This document shows positions 1 to 51,470 of a stretch of DNA of 64,000 nucleotides, piece by piece. The stretch comes from Candidatus Berkelbacteria bacterium (GTDB lineage: Bacteria; Patescibacteriota; UBA1384; XYA2-FULL-43-10; 1-14-0-10-43-13): assembly GCA_037143235.1 (NCBI GenBank), contig JBAWZC010000003.1, positions 25,192 through 89,191 of the forward strand. Reading direction: 5' to 3'. A model generated the notes under the pieces. That model saw nothing but the letters and a program-made list of their open reading frames with translations. It did no database searches and had not been told where the DNA came from. Position 1 is the stretch's first letter. Each line of letters begins with the position of its first letter. The position numbers and the translations under genes are program-made.

Positions 1-794
1 GATAATTTGTTATTTGGAAATAGTCCTATCAGGGTTACCACTAGCGCCAGCAACACCGCAAATGATATCAGTATCCTGCGAACCTTTTGACCCAATCTTA
101 CATAAAGAAAGATGAACAGGGACAAAAGCAGTCCGAGCAGCGCAGCGCGAGAAAAGGAGAAAAAGATGGCCAGAAAGAATACTACAGAAAACAAAACAGG
201 CAACTTTTTTGACCTATTTTCGATAATATCACTGATACTAAGGAAAAACGTCGGTAAAAGATATGACCCAAGTTGATTCGCACCTAGCAAAAACGAAGCG
301 CTACGCTGGATGTTACTACTCCCGACCAGAAATGTGCCATACGAGTTTTCAATGTTCGGGATGATTAATTGCCAATAATTCAGTGGGAACAATCTCTCAA
401 TCAGCGCCCACAGAGCCACGACAAATGCGACCCAAAGATATATTCTAATCATTTTTTTCAGATCACAAGCTTGTCCAAAGACAGAAGCGGAGAAAAGAAG
501 TGCAATCGACAAAAGAGTAAAACGGAAACCTTCAACTCCCTGGCGCCAGCTCGGAGAAATAAAAAATATCGAAATCAAACCGAGTGCCATCAGACAAATT
601 GAAAAAAAACGCCAGTCCAAAAAAGACTTTCGGTTGAAATTCAGCAAATATTTGATGAAAGCCACCAGAGACAATACAACAATGACAAGATCATAGAAAT
701 GCAAATACGGGAATTCCGGTAAATCAAACCCAGAAACTGACAGGAAATAATACCAAAGCAGGTGACCAAATGGCAGAAAAATAATCAAAAACAT
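1..794 (-). CDS. O-antigen ligase (Wzy_C)-like polytopic membrane protein, partial; it runs off the left edge. Start codon is the complement of 792-794.
   Basis: Manual translation of the minus strand from the ATG at 792-794 gives MFLIIFLPFGHLLWYYFL... with at least 8 hydrophobic helices and an 'FSFSRAALLGL' loop motif like the neighbouring ligase-like gene. No stop occurs before position 1. It is absent from the ORF track only because it is truncated. Confidence 0.5.
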   Translation of the reverse strand, partial: MFLIIFLPFGHLLWYYFLSVSGFDLPEFPYLHFYDLVIVVLSLVAFIKYLLNFNRKSFLDWRFFSICLMALGLISIFFISPSWRQGVEGFRFTLLSIALLFSASVFGQACDLKKMIRIYLWVAFVVALWALIERLFPLNYWQLIIPNIENSYGTFLVGSSNIQRSASFLLGANQLGSYLLPTFFLSISDIIENRSKKLPVLFSVVFFLAIFFSFSRAALLGLLLSLFIFLYVRLGQKVRRILISFAVLLALVVTLIGLFPNNKL

Positions 795-4682: not shown

Positions 4683-4710
4683 GTGAATTACGAATCAGGA
4701 ATCATGAATT

Positions 4711-5091
4711 ATGGATGAAAACAAAACAATAAAATCTTTCGCAGACTTAAATTCATGGAAAGAATCTCGCAAATTGGCAGTAAAAGTATATGAAGTTACC
4801 AAGAAATACCCAAAAGAAGAGATGTTTGGACTGACAAACCAATCTAGGAGATGCGCCGTTTCGATTTCATCAAATATAGCAGAGGGATTTAGCAGACAAT
4901 CATACAAAGAAAAAGTACAATTTTACTCAATATCTCTTGGGTCAACAACAGAGTTACAAAGCCAACTTTTGATCGCTAAGGATGTCGGATTTCTTGATAC
5001 TATTGACTACAATAGCTTGATTAATCAGTCAATAATTGTACATAAATTACTTAACGGGTTAGTAAAAAGCTCCAAAAACCATGATTCATAA
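4711..5091 (+). CDS. Four-helix-bundle protein (23S rRNA intervening-sequence protein family, TIGR02436-like)
   Basis: 126 aa carrying the family signature '...QSRRCAVSISSNIAEGFSRQS...'. A paralog lies at 30475-30852. Confidence 0.7.
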   Translation: MDENKTIKSFADLNSWKESRKLAVKVYEVTKKYPKEEMFGLTNQSRRCAVSISSNIAEGFSRQSYKEKVQFYSISLGSTTELQSQLLIAKDVGFLDTIDYNSLINQSIIVHKLLNGLVKSSKNHDS

Positions 5092-5126
5092 TTCATTATT
5101 CAAAATTCTAAAATCCAAAGGATTTT

Positions 5127-30474: not shown

Positions 30475-30852
30475 TTATTTTTCGAATTTATCTATTTTGT
30501 CTTTTTGATTCATGGTGTGAACAATCTTGTGAAAGATCAGACACAATTCGTTACACTCAGACCAGATTTTTTCAATTTCAATTTTATGCTCATCTTCAAT
30601 GTTTTGAAGCAATTTCAGCCAATATTTAGTTTCAGATCCTTCCTTCTTGCAAATAAATATTTTGTTCTTAAAATCCTTTTTGCTGCTAGCGTTGTTGGCT
30701 TCAATATAATTAGCGCCAACACTGGTAGCGGAGCGAACCAGCTGATTTATTATCGGACGGCTAATGTTCGTTTCCTTGATATTTTTTGACAATTCGATAA
30801 CCTGTGTCGAAAATCGAAGCAATCTGTTTTCAAATTCAATTTCCCTGCTCAT
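30475..30852 (-). CDS. Four-helix-bundle protein (23S rRNA IVS protein family), second paralog
   Basis: Contains 'LVRSATSVGANYIEANNASSKKDF' and a 'KYWLKLL' signature. Confidence 0.7.
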   Translation of the reverse strand: MSREIEFENRLLRFSTQVIELSKNIKETNISRPIINQLVRSATSVGANYIEANNASSKKDFKNKIFICKKEGSETKYWLKLLQNIEDEHKIEIEKIWSECNELCLIFHKIVHTMNQKDKIDKFEK

Positions 30853-32966: not shown

Positions 32967-33869
32967 TTGCAATCAGACAGGTTTTTCACTAAGATTATGA
33001 GGATGTATCTATCTTACCCCGTGCAACTGAAAGAATTTGGTCGAGAGTACTTCGAGGACACGGAGCATGGTTTTGCCTATCGGTATCAACAGTCGAAAAG
33101 GTTTTTTGGCTTGATGAAATCCATCTTTATCCCCTATGGTCCTGTTTGCAACGATCTCAAGAGTTTTAGCAACTTCCTTGATCAGATCGAAAAAAATAAA
33201 ATGACCAAAGTTTACATCGACTTGCCACTGATATTAGACCCAAAAATCTTAAAAGAAGTGACCAAAGAGTTGCAGCAGAGAGGTTACAAACATCATCGCT
33301 CCGAAGTTTTGGATGGCGAAACTATCCTAGTCGAAAAAGATAAATATTGCCCAAATTCGAGATCGGCCAGATACATCCGGCGAGGGATAGAAAATTTTCG
33401 CATCGAGATAAAGAGCGAGATAGCCAAAGACGAGATCAGGGTGATGCACGAGCTCTATCTGTCAAACAATACCGAGATCAGAGACTTCAATCCCAAACCT
33501 CTTGCCGCCTTCACTAAAATTGCTAGTCACGGGGTGACGGCAATCGCTTATGATAAAATCACGAACAAAATCGAAGGGTTTCTGATGGGCTATATCGATG
33601 AGATCGCTACTGATTTTAAAAACAATGTTAACAAAAAAATTCTATATCTGATGTTTACAGCAGCTACCGACATTGGCCGAGAACAAAAGATCGGTTTCGC
33701 CCTTCATGGCCGACTTTTCGACGAAGCCTTTAATAATTTAGGCGTTGACCTCGTTGATTTCCTTGGCGCTGACAGAGCGATGAATCGTAAATACACTGAG
33801 TTTAAGATGAAGTGGGGAGGTGAATTTGTCAGTTTCCCCGGTAGTTATCAGAAAACTTTTTGGCTTTGA
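32967..33869 (+). CDS. FemAB-family peptidyltransferase (peptidoglycan cross-bridge formation)
   Basis: 300 aa. 'TEFKMKWGGEF' matches the conserved FemABX C-terminal motif. Confidence 0.7.
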   Translation: MQSDRFFTKIMRMYLSYPVQLKEFGREYFEDTEHGFAYRYQQSKRFFGLMKSIFIPYGPVCNDLKSFSNFLDQIEKNKMTKVYIDLPLILDPKILKEVTKELQQRGYKHHRSEVLDGETILVEKDKYCPNSRSARYIRRGIENFRIEIKSEIAKDEIRVMHELYLSNNTEIRDFNPKPLAAFTKIASHGVTAIAYDKITNKIEGFLMGYIDEIATDFKNNVNKKILYLMFTAATDIGREQKIGFALHGRLFDEAFNNLGVDLVDFLGADRAMNRKYTEFKMKWGGEFVSFPGSYQKTFWL

Positions 33870-33879
33870 TCTAAAGTTC

Positions 33880-33995
33880 TCTGTCATTCCCGCGCAGGCG
33901 GGAATCCACAAAATATTTTACCAGATTCCTGCTCATCGAGTCTGAGCCTGAGGACTCTTCCCTCAGAGTCGAATGACCTTCGCAGGAATGACAAA
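33880..33995. repeat. Intergenic palindromic repeat element (module A)
   Basis: 'ctgtcattcccgcgcaggcgggaatccacaaa' is shared with 35482-35515. The element ends in 'cgcaggaatgacaaacag'. Confidence 0.55.
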
Positions 33996-34064
33996 CAGCT
34001 TGGTTATTTTGTCATTTGGACGTTGATTTAGAAATTGGAAATTGGAAATTTGGTTATTTTTTTC

Positions 34065-35432
34065 CTATTCCACCAACTCCCAGTTCGAATCAACCTTGAT
34101 CTCATCCCATTTTTTCACATCGCCACGCTTGATATGATAATACGCCGCAAGGCCGATCATTGCCGCGTTGTCGCCAGTCATTGCTCTTTCTGGAGACAGA
34201 AAAGTAATTGACGGTGAAGCACTTGTGACTGTTTCCCCCAAACGACCCCGCAAGTAGCTATTTGCGCTCACACCGCCAGCAAAAACAACTGTTTTGGGCG
34301 AATACTTAGCGATTGCTTTGGATAGTTTCGACGAAAGTACCTCAGCAACCGCATCTTCAAAAGCACAACAAATCTCCTGCTTGATCTCCGTTGATATCTC
34401 CGCCGACGACGCTAAGTCTTTCTCTAATATAATTTTTTTAACTTGATATAAAACCGCGGTTTTGAGCCCAGAAAAGGAAAAATTGAATGTATCGTCTCGG
34501 AGCAATGGCCGAGGAAAAACGATACTTAAATTATGAATAATGAATAATGAATTATGGATTTCTTTCGGATTTCTTTCGGATTTAGAATTTTGGTTTTGGG
34601 ATTTATTTCGGGTTTCGGATTTCGGATTTAGAATTTTGTTTCTGAATTCACTCGCATATTTAGAAACAATTGGTCCTCCGGGGTAGCCAAGACCAAGTAA
34701 TTTTGCCACCTTGTCGTAAGCCTCACCGACTGCATCGTCTAAAGTTTCGCCAAGAGTTTCATATACACCATGATCCTCCATCAGTGTGATTGAGGTATGA
34801 CCACCAGAAACTGTTAACGAGATCAATGGAAAGTACGAAGCACTAAGCTCTAAATCCGAAACAATATCTAAATTAGAATTTTTAATATTTAAACTATTTG
34901 AACTTGAAATTTCTTTAGTATTTGGGGTTTGGGATTTGGGATTTGCGCCAGCCAAAGCGGAGTAAATATGTCCCTCGATGTGATTCACGGGTACGATTGG
35001 CAGATTGAGCGCATAAGATATTGTTTTGGCAGCGTTGAATCCAACCAACAACGAACCGATCAAGCCAGGACCAGCTGTGACGGCAATGTGAGTAACACCA
35101 TTGAGTAAATCCGAAGCGCTAATATCTAAATCCGAAACAATGCCCAAATTCGAATTTTTAATGTTTAAACTGTTTGAGCATGAAATTTCTTTAGTATTTG
35201 GGGTTTGGGATTTCGAATTTACCAGTGATTCTGTAATCACTGGTACAATTGCTTCGACATGTGCTCGACTGGCAACTTCTGGCACTACGCCTCCAGTCAG
35301 GGCATGTAGGTCCACCTGTGAGGAAATAATATTCGACAAAACGACCGGTTTCCCATCGATTTCCTCGATCACGGCCGCCGCTGTCTCATCGCAGGACGAT
35401 TCGATTGCTAGTATTCGTATATTATTTTTCAT
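34065..35432 (-). CDS. tsaD: tRNA N6-adenosine threonylcarbamoyltransferase TsaD carrying three in-frame repeat-derived insertions
   Basis: Contains 'ILAIESSCDETAAAV...GGVVPEVASRAH', 'VTAGPGLIGSLLVG', 'NHIEGH' and 'SGGHT'. At 455 aa it is ~118 aa longer than canonical TsaD, because of three ~35-40 aa low-complexity inserts. Confidence 0.85.
   Translation of the reverse strand: MKNNIRILAIESSCDETAAAVIEEIDGKPVVLSNIISSQVDLHALTGGVVPEVASRAHVEAIVPVITESLVNSKSQTPNTKEISCSNSLNIKNSNLGIVSDLDISASDLLNGVTHIAVTAGPGLIGSLLVGFNAAKTISYALNLPIVPVNHIEGHIYSALAGANPKSQTPNTKEISSSNSLNIKNSNLDIVSDLELSASYFPLISLTVSGGHTSITLMEDHGVYETLGETLDDAVGEAYDKVAKLLGLGYPGGPIVSKYASEFRNKILNPKSETRNKSQNQNSKSERNPKEIHNSLFIIHNLSIVFPRPLLRDDTFNFSFSGLKTAVLYQVKKIILEKDLASSAEISTEIKQEICCAFEDAVAEVLSSKLSKAIAKYSPKTVVFAGGVSANSYLRGRLGETVTSASPSITFLSPERAMTGDNAAMIGLAAYYHIKRGDVKKWDEIKVDSNWELVE
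34515..34650. repeat. In-frame repeat insertion C inside tsaD (diverged copy)
   Basis: AT-rich 'ggatttctttcggattt...tttgggattt...cggatttagaatttt' shares its core with inserts A and B. Translates as NPKSETRNKSQNQNSKSERNPKEIHNSLFIIHNLS. Confidence 0.5.
34846..34950. repeat. In-frame repeat insertion B inside tsaD
   Basis: 'ctaaatccgaaacaatatctaaattagaatttttaatatttaaactatttgaacttgaaatttctttagtatttggggtttgggattt' is ~88% identical to 35128-35215. Its ends, aaatccgaaac / gtttgggattt, are imperfect inverted repeats. Confidence 0.6.
35106..35222. repeat. In-frame repeat insertion A inside tsaD
   Basis: Near-identical to insert B and includes an internal 'taaatccgaa' duplication. Encodes KSQTPNTKEISCSNSLNIKNSNLGIVSDLDISAS. 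Confidence 0.6.
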
Positions 35433-35479
35433 TTAGATCATTTGTCACTAATTGGTTTAGATTAGAAATAGTTTGTCAT

Positions 35480-35605
35480 TCTTGAATGTACTGTCATTCC
35501 CGCGCAGGCGGGAATCCACAAACAGTATTAACACATGATACGGTCTTCTGGACGCTTACGCTGTGACAGGATTCCTGCCTTCGCAGGAATGACAAATTTA
35601 CAACC
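35480..35605. repeat. Intergenic palindromic repeat element (module A)
   Basis: 'gtcattcccgcgcaggcgggaatccacaaa ... cgcttacgctgtgacaggattcctgccttcgcaggaatgacaaa'. Terminal inverted repeats gtcattcc / ggaatgac. Confidence 0.6.
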
Positions 35606-35666
35606 TCTCTATTTTTACCATTACCAGGGCATTTATTCAATCTCAGAATGGTGCTAGAATATTTCT

Positions 35667-36605
35667 ATGGCAAACATCTTCCAATCTCATGAGTGGGAAC
35701 AATTCAAACTTCAAAGTGGCTACCAGAAAAGTTATCGTGTTGATGGTGTTCTTGTCTTGCAAAAAAATCTACCGCTTGGGCGGACAATGCTATACGCGCC
35801 GATGGTCAGTCAGCCTACGGCTGACGAAATTATGAATAGTGAATCAAGAATTAAGGATTTCATGGCAGAAATTCGAAAGATAGGCAACGAACAAAACTCT
35901 ATCTTTTTTCGATTGGAGTTTGACGTCCCGGTCGACCATGATTCATACCCCATAATTCATGATTCTGCTATTGTACAAAGCTTTGAGGAGATGCAACCCG
36001 AAAATACTTGGGTTCTCGATCTCAGCCAAAGCGAAGAAGAAATTCAGAAGAATATGAAGCCACGTGCCCGCTACAATATCAGACTTGCGGAGAAAAGTGG
36101 CGTCACGGTCAAAAGTGGTTTTACGGCTGAGCATCTCGATATTTTTTACAACCTTCACAGCTCGACCGCCATACGCCACGGGATTTCCTACCGGAGCAAG
36201 GATTACTTCGCCAGATTAGTTGAGTGTTTGAGACCAGCGGGATTGGTAAAGATTTTTGTTGCTTATCTCGATGAAGAGCCGATTTCCAGTCACATCATCA
36301 TTTCCTCTGGAGATACGGCGATTAATATGTTTGGTGCTTCATCAACTGACCATCGCGAAGTGAAGGCTCCCCACTTGCTCCAATGGCGCATCATAGAGGA
36401 GTGCAAGAGCAATGGCTTTGCCAAATATGACTTTTTTGGTATCGCCCCTTCTGACGACTCTAAGCACAAATGGGCCGGTATCACCAGCTTCAAAAAAAGT
36501 TTTGGCGGGTACCAGCGAGACCTGATGGGTAGCTACGATCTAATATTTAAGCCCCTTGAATATCAGATATTCAAGTTGGCAGAGAATATTCGCCGACCGA
36601 AATAA
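35667..36605 (+). CDS. FemAB-family peptidyltransferase
   Basis: 312 aa with 'ITSFKKSFGGYQRD' (FemABX motif). Paralog of 32967-33869. Confidence 0.7.
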   Translation: MANIFQSHEWEQFKLQSGYQKSYRVDGVLVLQKNLPLGRTMLYAPMVSQPTADEIMNSESRIKDFMAEIRKIGNEQNSIFFRLEFDVPVDHDSYPIIHDSAIVQSFEEMQPENTWVLDLSQSEEEIQKNMKPRARYNIRLAEKSGVTVKSGFTAEHLDIFYNLHSSTAIRHGISYRSKDYFARLVECLRPAGLVKIFVAYLDEEPISSHIIISSGDTAINMFGASSTDHREVKAPHLLQWRIIEECKSNGFAKYDFFGIAPSDDSKHKWAGITSFKKSFGGYQRDLMGSYDLIFKPLEYQIFKLAENIRRPK

Positions 36606-36614
36606 GACTCAAAT

Positions 36615-36940
36615 TCTTGCTCCCTTTTCTGTCATTCCTGCCCTGAAACGAGTTCAGGATAAACTCCGGCAGGAATCTAGTAACAATAAAAATGCCAAGA
36701 TACACTCTGCTTGGCGCTTACGCGTCGTCAGGATTCCTGCCTGCGCAGGAATGACAAAAGGAAAGAACGGGTTGAGTTGTTATTGCGGGGAGTCTGCGAC
36801 CTACCTACCGGCAGGCAGGCGCGGCAATCAATCATGACTTCTCGACAAGCTCGAAGAATAACTAGTTATGGTTCGACCTTGTGGAGAACAGCTTGGTACT
36901 TCTCGACACGTCCAGCTCACTCGAAGAATAAAATAACCTA
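36615..36940. repeat. Composite intergenic repeat (modules A + B + C)
   Basis: 36630-36765 copies 32756-32930. 36785-36840 ('gcggggagtctgcgacctacctaccggcaggcaggcgcggcaatcaatcat') recurs inverted at 51283-51345. 36865-36900 ('gttatggttcgaccttgtggagaacagc') recurs at 38280-38320 (inverted), 49235-49290 and 51195-51225 (inverted). Confidence 0.6.
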
Positions 36941-51149: not shown

Positions 51150-51470
51150 AGTTTTTAAGTGTTTAAGCCAGACAGTGAAAACAGGTCACTTTGCTAAGGC
51201 TGTTCTCCACGAGGTCGAACCATAACTAGTACCACGGCATTCTTATTGTTATTCTTCGAGCGAGCCTTGCGAGTCGAGAAGTAATGATAGATTGCCGCGC
51301 CTGCCTGCCGGTAGGTAGGTCGAAGACTTCTCGCAATGACAAACAGTTCTGTCCTTCCTGCGCAGGCAGGAATCTAGATATAATAGCAACTTCAGAATAT
51401 GCTCTCCTAGGCGCTCACGCGACGACGGGATTCCTGCCTACGCAGGAATGACACAGGGATAGGTGGAAAA
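51150..51470. repeat. Composite intergenic repeat cluster (modules D, C inverted, B inverted, A)
   Basis: 51195-51260 is the reverse complement of module C. 51283-51345 is the reverse complement of 36785-36840. 51350-51460 holds 'cctgcgcaggcaggaatc ... gggattcctgcctacgcaggaatgaca' inverted repeats. Confidence 0.6.

What the first reader, a model, noticed from the sequence alone, without database searches (positions are those of the whole stretch)
34515..35222. Three in-frame ~100-nt palindromic repeat insertions inside the essential tsaD gene (analogous to Rickettsia RPEs)
TsaD here is 455 aa, against ~340 canonical. Alignment to the conserved blocks (AGPGL, HxEGH, SGGHT, GYPGG) places three extra segments of ~35-40 aa in surface loops. 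At the DNA level, inserts A (35106-35222) and B (34846-34950) are ~88% identical AT-rich elements ending in imperfect inverted repeats (aaatccgaaac ... gtttgggattt). Insert C is a diverged relative. All three are multiples of 3, free of stops in the tsaD frame, and encode similar peptides (KSQTPNTKEISxSNSLNIKNSNL.IVSDL). Related 'gaaattggaaatt' tracts sit just outside the gene at 34025-34060. This looks like a selfish repeat that survives inside an essential ORF by preserving the reading frame.
Basis: seen in the sequence. Interest (0 to 1): 0.8.

Follow-up and report, generated by a model that had tools for sequence, protein, structure and literature searches.

The report
Hairpin repeats translated inside tsaD
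An essential tRNA-modification gene of an uncultured ultra-small (CPR) bacterium carries three in-frame insertions derived from a family of hairpin DNA repeats found in many bacterial phyla, a Rickettsia-like case of "junk" DNA becoming part of a protein.

Summary
tsaD (34065-35432, minus strand, 455 aa) has three extra segments of about 33-36 aa, placed exactly where the alignment to solved TsaD structures breaks.

Inserts A (35112-35219) and B (34836-34943) are 108-nt copies, 88% identical, with 28-32% GC against 46% for the rest of the gene. A profile built only from 72 elements of other genomes recognises A (E 2e-13) and B (E 4e-10) over nearly its full length. It also matches half of insert C (E 1e-5) and nothing else in the 64 kb.

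The family is a hairpin of about 145 nt whose arms are AAATCCG/CGGATTT heptamers. It is mostly intergenic and occurs in Patescibacteria, Planctomycetota, Desulfobacterota, Verrucomicrobiota and other phyla.

A relative carries an 88%-identical copy in frame in a class-I tRNA synthetase, and the orthologue has a clean empty site. Other in-frame copies sit in an AAA ATPase and an NRPS domain.

TsaD relatives show patchy colonisation of the same three loops by several repeat families. Differences between A and B fall mostly at third codon positions (pN/pS 0.15), so the inserts are translated. AlphaFold models them as disordered loops on an intact core.

The RPE analogy is supported, but these copies are old and decayed, not active.

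In three other lineages the same arms bracket PF05635 (rRNA-IVS protein) genes.

The parts
34065..35432 (-). tsaD coding sequence (455 aa), the host gene. All catalytic blocks are intact.
   Evidence: ORF. Pfam TsaD E 2.9e-71. The AF2 core has pLDDT above 90 and a target-normalised TM-score of 0.90 to E. coli TsaD 4ydu/6z81. HxEGH, SGGHT, GYPGGP and GDNAAM are invariant in an alignment of 120 homologues.
35112..35219 (-). Insert A: 108 nt, 36 codons, aa 72-107 (NSKSQTPNTKEISCSNSLNIKNSNLGIVSDLDISAS). A near-full-length copy of the heptamer-armed hairpin family, placed after helix alpha-1.
   Evidence: nhmmer with the foreign-element profile gives E 2.4e-13 over hmm 2-148. 88% identical to B. 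pLDDT below 50 for residues 81-99. RNA fold -21.6 kcal/mol, z -1.5.
34836..34943 (-). Insert B: 108 nt, 36 codons, aa 164-199 (NPKSQTPNTKEISSSNSLNIKNSNLDIVSDLELSAS). The second copy, in the loop after the HIEGH metal-binding helix.
   Evidence: nhmmer E 3.5e-10 over hmm 2-145. pLDDT below 50 for residues 164-188. RNA fold -14.3 kcal/mol, z -0.6.
34563..34640 (-). Insert C, part 1: a tandem array of left-arm-type units (AAATCCGAAA and variants), read in the same frame as in A and B (NPKSETRNKSQNQNSKSERNPKE). It has one arm type only and forms no hairpin.
   Evidence: TRF periods 7, 11, 14, 18 and 32. nhmmer matches the left-arm half only, hmm 2-63, E 1.1e-5. 5 of the 9 arm-motif hits fall here. 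Fold z +2.1.
34518..34562 (-). Insert C, part 2: (AATAATG)4-type half-arm (peptide EIHNSLFIIHNLSIV). It belongs to the heptamer family whose inverted arms bracket the PF05635 gene at 4684-5102.
   Evidence: TRF 34529-34556, period 7. BLASTN hits to 4686-4716 and 5075-5107 at 87-88%. Inverted arms 4684-4715 / 5071-5102. The equivalent peptide 'SEFIIHNS' occurs in loop C of the P0014 orthologue.

Best explanation
tsaD of this CPR/Patescibacteria bacterium (a relative of Berkelbacteria) was colonised at the DNA level by non-autonomous hairpin repeats.

**The element.** A and B are two 108-nt copies of one variant of a widespread family. The left arm is (AAATCCG)n..AAACAAAT, the centre is variable, and the right arm is TGTTTCGGATTTmGAnATTmGTGCTTCGGATTT. 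The median length is about 145 nt.

**Why it is tolerated.** The arm heptamer contains no stop codon in any of the six frames, and the element is a palindrome. A copy whose length is a multiple of three can therefore sit in an ORF in either orientation. It then adds an N/K/S/D-rich peptide (NPKSE..RNPKQ ... VSDFDIRASDF).

**Where copies survive.** Only copies landing in three permissive loops of TsaD survive: after alpha-1, after the HxEGH helix, and after the GYPGGP helix. There they are transcribed and translated as disordered surface loops on an otherwise canonical TsaD.

**What happened since.** After A and B separated they evolved under codon-level purifying selection. Their hairpin potential also decayed. 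That decay is plausibly selected, because a long perfect stem inside an mRNA would be an RNase III or ribosome obstacle. C is a decayed composite: arm heptamers of this family plus a half-arm of a second family, reshaped by slippage.

**Shown:** the repeat itself, family membership, dispersal to other genes, empty sites, patchy recurrent colonisation, third-position bias, and predicted disorder.

**Inferred:** the insertion mechanism (no transposase identified), actual translation, neutrality or function of the loops, and the reason for hairpin decay.
For: **Family membership**
- A profile from 72 foreign elements hits A (E 2.4e-13), B (3.5e-10) and half of C (1.1e-5). Nothing else in the 64 kb scores better than E 0.16.
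- Alignment A2 shows shared arms in eight copies from four species.

**Dispersed, cross-phylum family**
Hits came from Patescibacteria, Planctomycetota, Desulfobacterota, Verrucomicrobiota/Kiritimatiellota, Omnitrophota, Aminicenantes, Nitrospinota and Binatia.
- Twelve example copies from those genomes fold at -44 to -68 kcal/mol.
- 1.72 of 6 frames are stop-free, against 0.22 in shuffles.

**Movement between genes**
- The copy at L002:12200-12331 lies inside a class-I aaRS (Pfam E 4.6e-135).
- It is 88% identical to tsaD insert B of the same genome.
- The 62%-identical orthologue in L004 has a clean 47-aa gap at WYK|SDEIY.
- In-frame copies also occur in an AAA ATPase (L106) and an NRPS AMP-binding domain (L075). 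LeuRS (L081) holds a half copy.

**Recurrent colonisation of the same loops**
- Across 120 TsaD homologues, loop A is 7-64 aa, loop B 5-65 aa and loop C 7-68 aa.
- The element motif is patchy on the NJ tree.
- Sister pairs differ in loop B, for example P0096 (10 aa) against P0068 (29 aa), and P0085 (9 aa) against P0082 (29 aa).

**Translated**
- 8 of 11 A/B differences are at third codon positions, P = 0.0088. pN/pS is 0.15.

**Structure**
- The AF2 core has pLDDT above 90. The inserts score below 50 (A, B) and about 58-67 (C).
- Target-normalised TM-score is 0.90 to E. coli TsaD.
- The PDB alignment breaks exactly at the inserts.
Against: - No other copy of the family lies in this 64-kb window. 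A JGI metagenome scan with a 20-mer specific to the A/B variant found no further copy of that variant. Activity in this genome is therefore not shown.
- A and B fold only weakly.
- No target-site duplication could be established at the aaRS filled/empty pair.
- No transposase has been linked to the family.
- The A/B third-position test rests on only 11 differences. The comparable L002 pair (tsaD-B against the aaRS copy) shows no such bias: 5/2/7.
- Translation was not observed directly.
Confidence: 0.8

Rival explanations
1. A single ancestral insertion followed by intragenic copying. Only one hairpin element ever entered this tsaD. The second loop received its copy by ectopic gene conversion or duplication from the first. 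A and B are therefore paralogues inside the gene, not two transposition events. This is a rival only for the route, not for the nature of the element.
For: - A and B are each other's closest relatives at 88%, while cross-species same-site copies are 70-76% identical.
- No donor copy of this variant was found in the 64 kb or in the metagenome scan.
- Their differences carry a coding signature, as expected if both diverged while already inside the ORF.
- Both are in the same frame and exactly 36 codons long.
Against: - In L002 the tsaD-B copy is as close to a copy in a different gene (aaRS, 88%) as A is to B here. Inter-gene spread of locally dominant variants therefore does occur.
- The flanks of A and B share no homology that would guide conversion.
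- Relatives with only one loop occupied (P0007, P0024, P0070) show that the loops are hit independently.
Confidence: 0.35
2. Lineage-specific low-complexity loop expansion. The extra segments arose in place by replication slippage of AT-rich simple sequence in unconstrained loops, with no mobile element involved.
For: - Insert C is built of 7-, 11-, 14- and 32-nt tandem units and has no palindrome.
- The arms are themselves heptamer microsatellites.
- The loops vary in length in all relatives.
- There is no other copy in the window.
Against: - A and B match a 148-position profile of foreign elements end to end, including the non-repetitive centre and both arms.
- The same 32-nt arm is found in many phyla.
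- There is an 88%-identical copy in a different gene, with an empty orthologous site.
- Slippage cannot produce two 108-nt complex copies 276 nt apart.
Confidence: 0.07
3. The inserts are removed before the mature protein is made, as an intron-like or IVS-like excision of the RNA hairpin, or as an intein. TsaD would then be canonical in length.
For: - Hairpins of this architecture are excised by RNase III when they sit in 23S rRNA (PMC4990558).
- CPR bacteria are known for insertions in rRNA genes (my recollection of Brown et al. 2015, not checked here).
Against: - Third-codon-position bias and pN/pS of 0.15 between A and B.
- Every copy in TsaD, aaRS, the AAA ATPase and the NRPS is in frame and stop-free.
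- There is no Rfam intron or other family hit.
- 36 aa is far too short for an intein.
- RNase III cleavage without ligation would destroy the mRNA.
- The stems in tsaD are eroded.
Confidence: 0.03
4. Exapted functional loops. Whatever their origin, the insert peptides now perform a CPR-specific function, for example contacts with TsaB/TsaE, tRNA or another partner, and are kept for that reason.
For: - Purifying selection on the peptide.
- The same three loops are occupied in most relatives, with median loop lengths of 28-38 aa.
- tsaD is the only one of 56 long ORFs in the window that holds such inserts.
Against: - Insert sequences are not conserved between sister lineages and come from different repeat families.
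- Some relatives have minimal loops, for example P0118 at 351 aa.
- The inserts are predicted to be disordered.
- Avoidance of stop codons or hydrophobic residues can also give a low pN/pS.
Confidence: 0.15

Closest known systems
Rickettsia palindromic elements (RPE; Ogata et al. 2000, listed in PMC3184786 as ~105-146 bp)
   Same: Both are short (about 100-150 nt) palindromic repeats found both between genes and fused in frame inside essential protein-coding genes. In both cases the insert is tolerated because it lands in loops and keeps the frame. The host genomes are reduced and host-dependent. tRNA-related enzymes are among the hosts.
   Different: - The sequence family is different (heptamer AAATCCG arms) and the phylum is different (CPR).
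- This family spans many phyla rather than one genus.
- Several unrelated repeat families repeatedly hit the same three TsaD loops.
- The arms are stop-free in all six frames.
- The same arms also bracket PF05635 genes.
23S rRNA intervening sequences (IVS) carrying an S23p/PF05635 ORF (e.g. Coxiella burnetii IVS, PMC4990558)
   Same: The architecture is the same: terminal inverted repeats form a stem of about 28-32 bp around a loop that may hold a four-helix-bundle ORF of about 120 aa (PF05635). Arms of the tsaD family bracket such ORFs in L037, L072 and L123. Arms of the insert-C2 family bracket one at window 4684-5102. Both are AT-rich relative to the host and sporadically distributed.
   Different: - The copies seen here are not in rRNA genes.
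- The tsaD copies lack the ORF.
- They sit in a protein-coding gene, where RNase III excision would be lethal for the message.
- The tsaD copies are translated rather than excised.
Bacterial MITEs and REP-type repeats that overlap ORFs (Correia, BOX/RUP/SPRITE, Coxiella QMITE1; PMC3184786, PMC5896051, PMC10969869)
   Same: All are non-autonomous, inverted-repeat-bearing, multi-copy and mostly intergenic, with occasional in-frame fusion to genes.
   Different: - No parent IS or transposase has been identified.
- No target-site duplication was established.
- The whole element is one long hairpin rather than short terminal repeats around an unrelated core.
- REPs are 20-40 nt and GC-rich.
Coding palindromes in Nematomorpha mitochondrial genes (PMC6649704) and PARCEL palindromic amphipathic repeat coding elements (PMC2996958)
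   Same: In these cases too, inverted repeats are embedded in protein-coding sequence and both arms are translated. PARCEL is also horizontally distributed among distant taxa.
   Different: The hosts are different (animal mitochondria; Mollicutes and protists) and the sequences are unrelated. In PARCEL the repeat builds whole surface proteins rather than inserting into conserved enzymes.

Membership tests
Heptamer-armed hairpin repeat family defined here (AAATCCG arms) | Near-full-length match to a profile built from family members of other genomes | tested here: met
   nhmmer results: A has E 2.4e-13 (hmm 2-148) and B has E 3.5e-10 (hmm 2-145). C matches the left half only, E 1.1e-5.
Heptamer-armed hairpin repeat family defined here (AAATCCG arms) | The two arms are reverse complements and form one long hairpin | tested here: inconclusive
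   A and B still fold as one imperfect hairpin, but z is only -1.5 and -0.6 on the mRNA strand and -2.5 and -1.8 on the antisense strand. Example copies elsewhere fold at -44 to -68 kcal/mol. C fails the test.
Rickettsia palindromic elements (RPE) | Palindromic repeat of about 100-150 nt inserted in frame in protein-coding genes, in positions compatible with the fold | tested here: met
   108-nt in-frame copies in loops that AF2 models as disordered, on an intact TsaD core.
Rickettsia palindromic elements (RPE) | Many dispersed copies in the same genome, both coding and intergenic | tested here: not met
   Within the 64 kb available, only the tsaD copies exist. A relative (L002) has copies in two genes within 20 kb. 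The rest of the source genome could not be searched.
Rickettsia palindromic elements (RPE) | Sequence homology to RPE-1..8 consensus; restricted to Rickettsia | not tested
The host is a CPR bacterium (closest named homologues are Berkelbacteria), so this is an analogue, not a member.
MITE | Target-site duplication flanking the element | tested here: inconclusive
   The filled/empty aaRS pair shows CTGGCAGG and TGGCGGTG next to the element, but the orthologues are too diverged to call a duplication.
MITE | A related autonomous IS with a transposase sharing the terminal repeats | tested here: not met
   The only ORF found between arms of this family is PF05635, a four-helix-bundle protein and not a known transposase. 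No systematic transposase search was done.
23S rRNA IVS-type element | A stem of about 28 bp or more formed by terminal inverted repeats, with an optional PF05635/S23p ORF in the loop | tested here: met
   Met for the family: 32-nt arms lie 372-474 nt apart around PF05635 ORFs (E 4e-12 to 7e-13) in L037, L072 and L123. The tsaD copies are the ORF-less form.
23S rRNA IVS-type element | Located in a 23S rRNA helix and excised by RNase III | tested here: not met
   There is no rRNA hit in L037, L072 or L123. The window copies lie in a protein gene. RNase III processing cannot be tested with these tools.
Intron / intein | Recognisable self-splicing RNA structure or a Hint domain | tested here: not met
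   There is no Rfam hit at E up to 1 on 33800-35700 apart from two chance-level matches outside the inserts. Pfam finds only TsaD-type domains. The inserts are 36-41 aa.
TsaD / Kae1 / Qri7 (host protein) | ASKHA fold with the HxxxH metal site, SGGHT and GDN motifs | tested here: met
   Pfam E 2.9e-71. H151, H155, S209-H212 and G420-N422 are invariant. Target-normalised TM-score is 0.90 to 4ydu.

The most novel reading that the evidence does not exclude
The AAATCCG-armed hairpins, and the parallel heptamer families seen here, are the ORF-less derivatives of a cross-phylum mobile cassette. Its full form carries a PF05635 gene (the '23S rRNA intervening-sequence protein', a bAvd-like four-helix bundle) in the hairpin loop.

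The same system would then account for three things:
- IVSs in rRNA, where the hairpin is excised by RNase III;
- the abundant intergenic hairpins in Planctomycetota, Desulfobacterota, CPR and other phyla;
- in-frame peptide insertions in essential enzymes such as TsaD and aaRS in CPR.

On this reading PF05635 would take part in mobility or maintenance. Arms that are stop-free in all six frames would be an adaptation for surviving inside genes.
Probability: 0.25. Interest if true: 0.85.

Novelty: new variant of a known kind. Interest (0 to 1): 0.65.

Why it matters
In-frame colonisation of essential genes by palindromic repeats is a textbook curiosity known mainly from Rickettsia. This locus suggests the phenomenon is also common in CPR bacteria.
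- It involves several repeat families.
- It strikes the same permissive loops of TsaD again and again.
- One of the families is shared by very distant phyla.

Three consequences follow.
1. It offers a natural map of insertion-tolerant sites in a universal, essential enzyme.
2. It explains part of the odd length variation (351-546 aa) and the low-complexity segments of CPR proteins, which confuse annotation and alignment.
3. It links short hairpin repeats to the enigmatic PF05635 "rRNA IVS protein" cassettes, which gives a testable route to what those cassettes are and how they move.

It also explains many short domain-less ORFs in metagenome databases. They are spurious gene calls on these hairpins.

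Tried and rejected
- **Rfam.** Searches of the locus and of 17 loci with family copies found no family for the hairpin.
- **Literature.** Searches for the peptide and DNA strings, for CPR plus palindromic or in-frame insertions, and for PF05635 found no description of this family or of repeat insertions in CPR proteins. The library is incomplete, so this is not proof of novelty.
- **Peptide profile search.** A profile of the insert peptides against 5.8 billion proteins returned only domain-less ORFs of 25-77 aa, which are spurious calls on intergenic copies. It gave no census of host proteins. The first attempt failed because the query was under 40 aa.
- **Metagenome scan.** A scan with a 20-mer specific to the A/B left arm found no further copy of that variant. 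It found only related hairpins (L127, L135, L136), arm-only inserts and eukaryotic telomere-like repeats.
- **Target-site duplication.** The filled/empty aaRS comparison was inconclusive.
- **Other ORFs in the window.** A motif scan of all 56 ORFs of 150 aa or more found repeat-type peptides only in tsaD. One weak FemAB hit (EIMNSESRIKDF, 35827-35861) is best treated as chance.
- **The extragenic tract.** I rejected the 34025-34060 tract as a copy of the element (73% over 26 nt; no nhmmer hit).
- **Assembly artefact.** I rejected this because orthologues with the same architecture come from independent assemblies. P0014 was read on 24 contigs.
- **Organism name.** The cluster look-up did not reveal a fuller organism name.
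Full report
**1. The observation**

The ORF at 34065-35432 on the minus strand encodes a 455-aa protein. It matches Pfam TsaD at E 2.9e-71, but in four separate stretches.

Against solved bacterial TsaD chains of 335-343 aa (3zet, 4ydu, 8iey), the alignment splits into four blocks. The gaps lie at query residues 70->112, 165->195 and 262->304, so each of three segments adds about 33-36 residues.

Two of the segments are a direct DNA repeat:
- 114 nt at 87% by ungapped extension;
- 102-109 nt at 88-89% by BLASTN.

In codon register the repeat is exactly 36 codons. A is 35112-35219 (aa 72-107) and B is 34836-34943 (aa 164-199). They are 88.0% identical, and similarity stops abruptly at both ends.

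The inserts have 28-32% GC, against 46% for the rest of the gene.

The third segment, C (34518-34640), is different. It is a tandem array of 7/11/14/32-nt units of the AAATCCGAAA type, followed by (AATAATG)4. It has no inverted symmetry and folds worse than shuffles (z +2.1).

**2. What the inserts are**

The organism is an uncultured CPR/Patescibacteria bacterium. The contig is a 99.6-kb ENA assembly. The closest named TsaD homologues are from Candidatus Berkelbacteria, at up to 62% identity.

I fetched three syntenic orthologous loci, L002, L004 and L005, each with the order FemAB-tsaD-...-VTT-PhdYeFM.

BLASTN and a multiple alignment show that the loop A and loop B inserts of all four species belong to one element family. 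It has a left arm (AAATCCGAAA)n..AAACAAAT, a variable centre, and a right arm TGTTTCGGATTTmGAnATTmGTGCTTCGGATTT. The arms are reverse complements of each other.

The hits came from:
- Patescibacteria (Saccharibacteria, Woesebacteria, Roizmanbacteria, Taylorbacteria and others);
- Planctomycetota;
- Desulfobacterota/'Deltaproteobacteria';
- Verrucomicrobiota, Kiritimatiellales and Lentisphaerae;
- Omnitrophota, Aminicenantes, Nitrospinota and Binatia.

These host loci have 36-60% GC.

Typical copies are single long hairpins. The median length is 145 nt, and twelve example copies fold at -44 to -68 kcal/mol. Most sit in short open frames and so are probably intergenic.

A profile of the insert peptides finds 157 database 'proteins' of 25-77 aa with no domain. 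These are spurious gene calls on such copies.

The decisive membership test used a profile HMM that I built only from 72 of these foreign elements. It matches:
- insert A at E 2.4e-13 (profile positions 2-148);
- insert B at E 3.5e-10 (positions 2-145);
- the arm array of C at E 1.1e-5 (left half only).

Nothing else in the 64-kb window scores better than E 0.16. Neither Rfam nor the paper library describes the family.

**3. Evidence that it moves and that genes tolerate it**

In L002 a third copy lies inside the neighbouring class-I aminoacyl-tRNA synthetase gene (Pfam tRNA-synt_1, E 4.6e-135).
- It is in frame and 88% identical to tsaD insert B of that genome (14 differences in 117 nt).
- The 62%-identical orthologue in L004 has a clean 47-residue gap at exactly that place: WYK|SDEIY against WYK-LAGNPKS...DIRASDFGG-EIF.

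Further in-frame copies inside validated domains occur in a RarA-like AAA ATPase (L106) and an NRPS adenylation domain (L075). A LeuRS (L081) holds a half copy.

In an alignment of 120 TsaD homologues the three loops range over 7-64, 5-65 and 7-68 residues. The element's arm motifs occur in 12 (loop A) and 14 (loop B) sequences with both arms present.

On a core-only NJ tree these carriers are scattered. The window's sister (P0002) carries different inserts. Sister pairs differ by presence or absence of an insert, for example P0096 against P0068 and P0085 against P0082 in loop B.

The loops of relatives also hold peptides typical of at least five other repeat families, such as CHSEQSEES..LRLPLVAQDD, VIPAKAGIQ, IDHLSLPISHLNEK..NEKCKM, LPAGRQ and ISNSKFLISN. 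The three loops are therefore recurrent landing or survival sites for several hairpin families.

The arm heptamer has no stop codon in any of six frames. Whole elements have 1.72 open frames of six, against 0.22 for shuffles.

**4. State of the copies in this window**

A and B differ at 11 of 102 core positions, and 8 of these are third codon positions (binomial P = 0.0088). pN/pS is 0.15. They have therefore diverged while being read in the tsaD frame, which argues for translation and against removal at the RNA level.

Their hairpins are eroded. On the mRNA strand the folds are -21.6 and -14.3 kcal/mol, with z of -1.5 and -0.6.

An AlphaFold2 model built with 120 homologues has mean pLDDT 83.5.
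- The core is above 90.
- Residues 81-99 and 164-188 are below 50.
- Residues 270-300 are at about 58-67.

Foldseek places the core on E. coli TsaD with a target-normalised TM-score of 0.90. All catalytic motifs are invariant.

No other copy of the family or of the A/B variant was found in the window or in JGI metagenomes using a variant-specific 20-mer. These are therefore old, fixed, translated residents.

Whether B was seeded from A, or both from a lost donor, is open. Within-genome copies are more alike (88% here; 79-94% in L002) than same-site copies between species (70-76%). That pattern fits either local spread or gene conversion.

**5. Link to IVS-type cassettes**

In three loci from different lineages (L037 Patescibacteria, L072 Tichowtungia, L123) the two arms of this same family lie 435-474 nt apart. 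They enclose a 118-122-aa ORF that matches PF05635, the '23S rRNA-intervening sequence protein', at E 4e-12 to 7e-13. None of these loci contains rRNA.

In the window itself, a PF05635 gene at 4711-5091 (E 2.8e-36) is bracketed by 32-nt inverted arms at 4684-4715 and 5071-5102. These arms belong to the AATCATG heptamer family, and the second half of insert C is a copy of that arm. Two PF05635 genes in L002 are bracketed in the same way.

This is the architecture described for the Coxiella 23S rRNA IVS: a 28-bp stem of terminal inverted repeats around an S23p ORF, excised by RNase III (PMC4990558). The short hairpins may thus be ORF-less relatives of IVS-type cassettes. This is an inference, and PF05635 is not a known transposase.

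**6. Comparison and verdict**

The closest known phenomenon is the Rickettsia palindromic element: 105-146 bp, fused in frame into genes (PMC3184786, citing Ogata et al. 2000). The locus works like an RPE but is not one, because the sequence family and the host phylum are different.

It adds four features:
- cross-phylum distribution;
- six-frame stop-free arms;
- repeated colonisation of the same loops by several families;
- the PF05635 connection.

I rate it a new variant of a known kind, with interest 0.65.

Noticed in passing
window 4684-5102: A PF05635 ('23S rRNA intervening sequence protein', bAvd-like) ORF at 4711-5091(+) is bracketed by 32-nt inverted arms made of AATCATG/AATTATG heptamers (4684-4715 / 5071-5102, 78% complementary). 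It looks like a free-standing IVS-type cassette that is not in rRNA. A second PF05635 gene at about 30475-30852(-) has no clear arms.
   Followed up: partly
L037:5562-6153, L072 (minus strand, oriented 1022-1613), L123:4278-4869: Arms of the same AAATCCG hairpin family as the tsaD inserts lie 435-474 nt apart and enclose PF05635 ORFs of 118-122 aa, in three distant lineages (Patescibacteria, Kiritimatiellota and one other). No rRNA gene lies in these loci.
   Followed up: partly
window 33880-33996, 35487-35598, 36742-36758, 51348-51455: A different intergenic repeat family (GTCATTCCCGCGCAGGCGGGAATCC ... TTCGCAGGAATGACAAA) flanks tsaD on both sides and recurs elsewhere in the window. The 17-mer has 6 hits against 0.25 expected. 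Its peptide reading (VIPAKAGIQ) appears inside TsaD loop A of a relative (P0099).
   Followed up: partly
window 34031-34050: (GAAATTG)3 lies just 3' of the tsaD stop codon. This is the heptamer of yet another hairpin family. Its translations (FPISNFQ / NWKLEI) occur in TsaD loops of many relatives.
   Followed up: no
L002:10905-13403 (class-I aaRS, 832 aa against 738 aa in L004): Besides the AAATCCG-family insert, this synthetase has two more in-frame inserts absent from the orthologue. Their peptides are typical of other palindromic repeat families (APRSLDEVGPSFAKATEGKTGG...; SVIARSETTKQS...LAMT).
   Followed up: partly
L004:10001-11569 (tsaD, 522 aa): Other inserts of this TsaD (cds nt 261-292, 1068-1143 and 1325-1360) have BLASTN matches at other places in L004 (295-326, 2681-2718, 5357-5392) and in L002 (6293-6359). 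By the called gene coordinates most of these are intergenic; 295-326 is inside or at the edge of the called gene 331-882. This suggests further repeat families shared between coding loops and spacers.
   Followed up: no
L133 and L144 (Hainich groundwater contigs), around the 20-mer match: An arm-only in-frame insert (EIPNPKSQTPNT) lies in a 501-aa ORF that carries RRDFTVNAMA, a motif I recall from CCA-adding/poly(A) polymerase enzymes. It may be another tRNA-related host.
   Followed up: no
protein database hits P0121-P0240: 157 database 'proteins' of 25-77 aa with no domain are simply translations of this hairpin. One carries the source name peroxiredoxin and one YwqG. This points to systematic over-calling of genes on these repeats in metagenome annotations.
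   Followed up: no
window 35827-35861 (FemAB-like gene 35667-36605): A 35-nt match (88.6%) to the (AATAATG)n part of insert C gives the peptide EIMNSESRIKDF. It could be a short in-frame arm remnant or chance.
   Followed up: no
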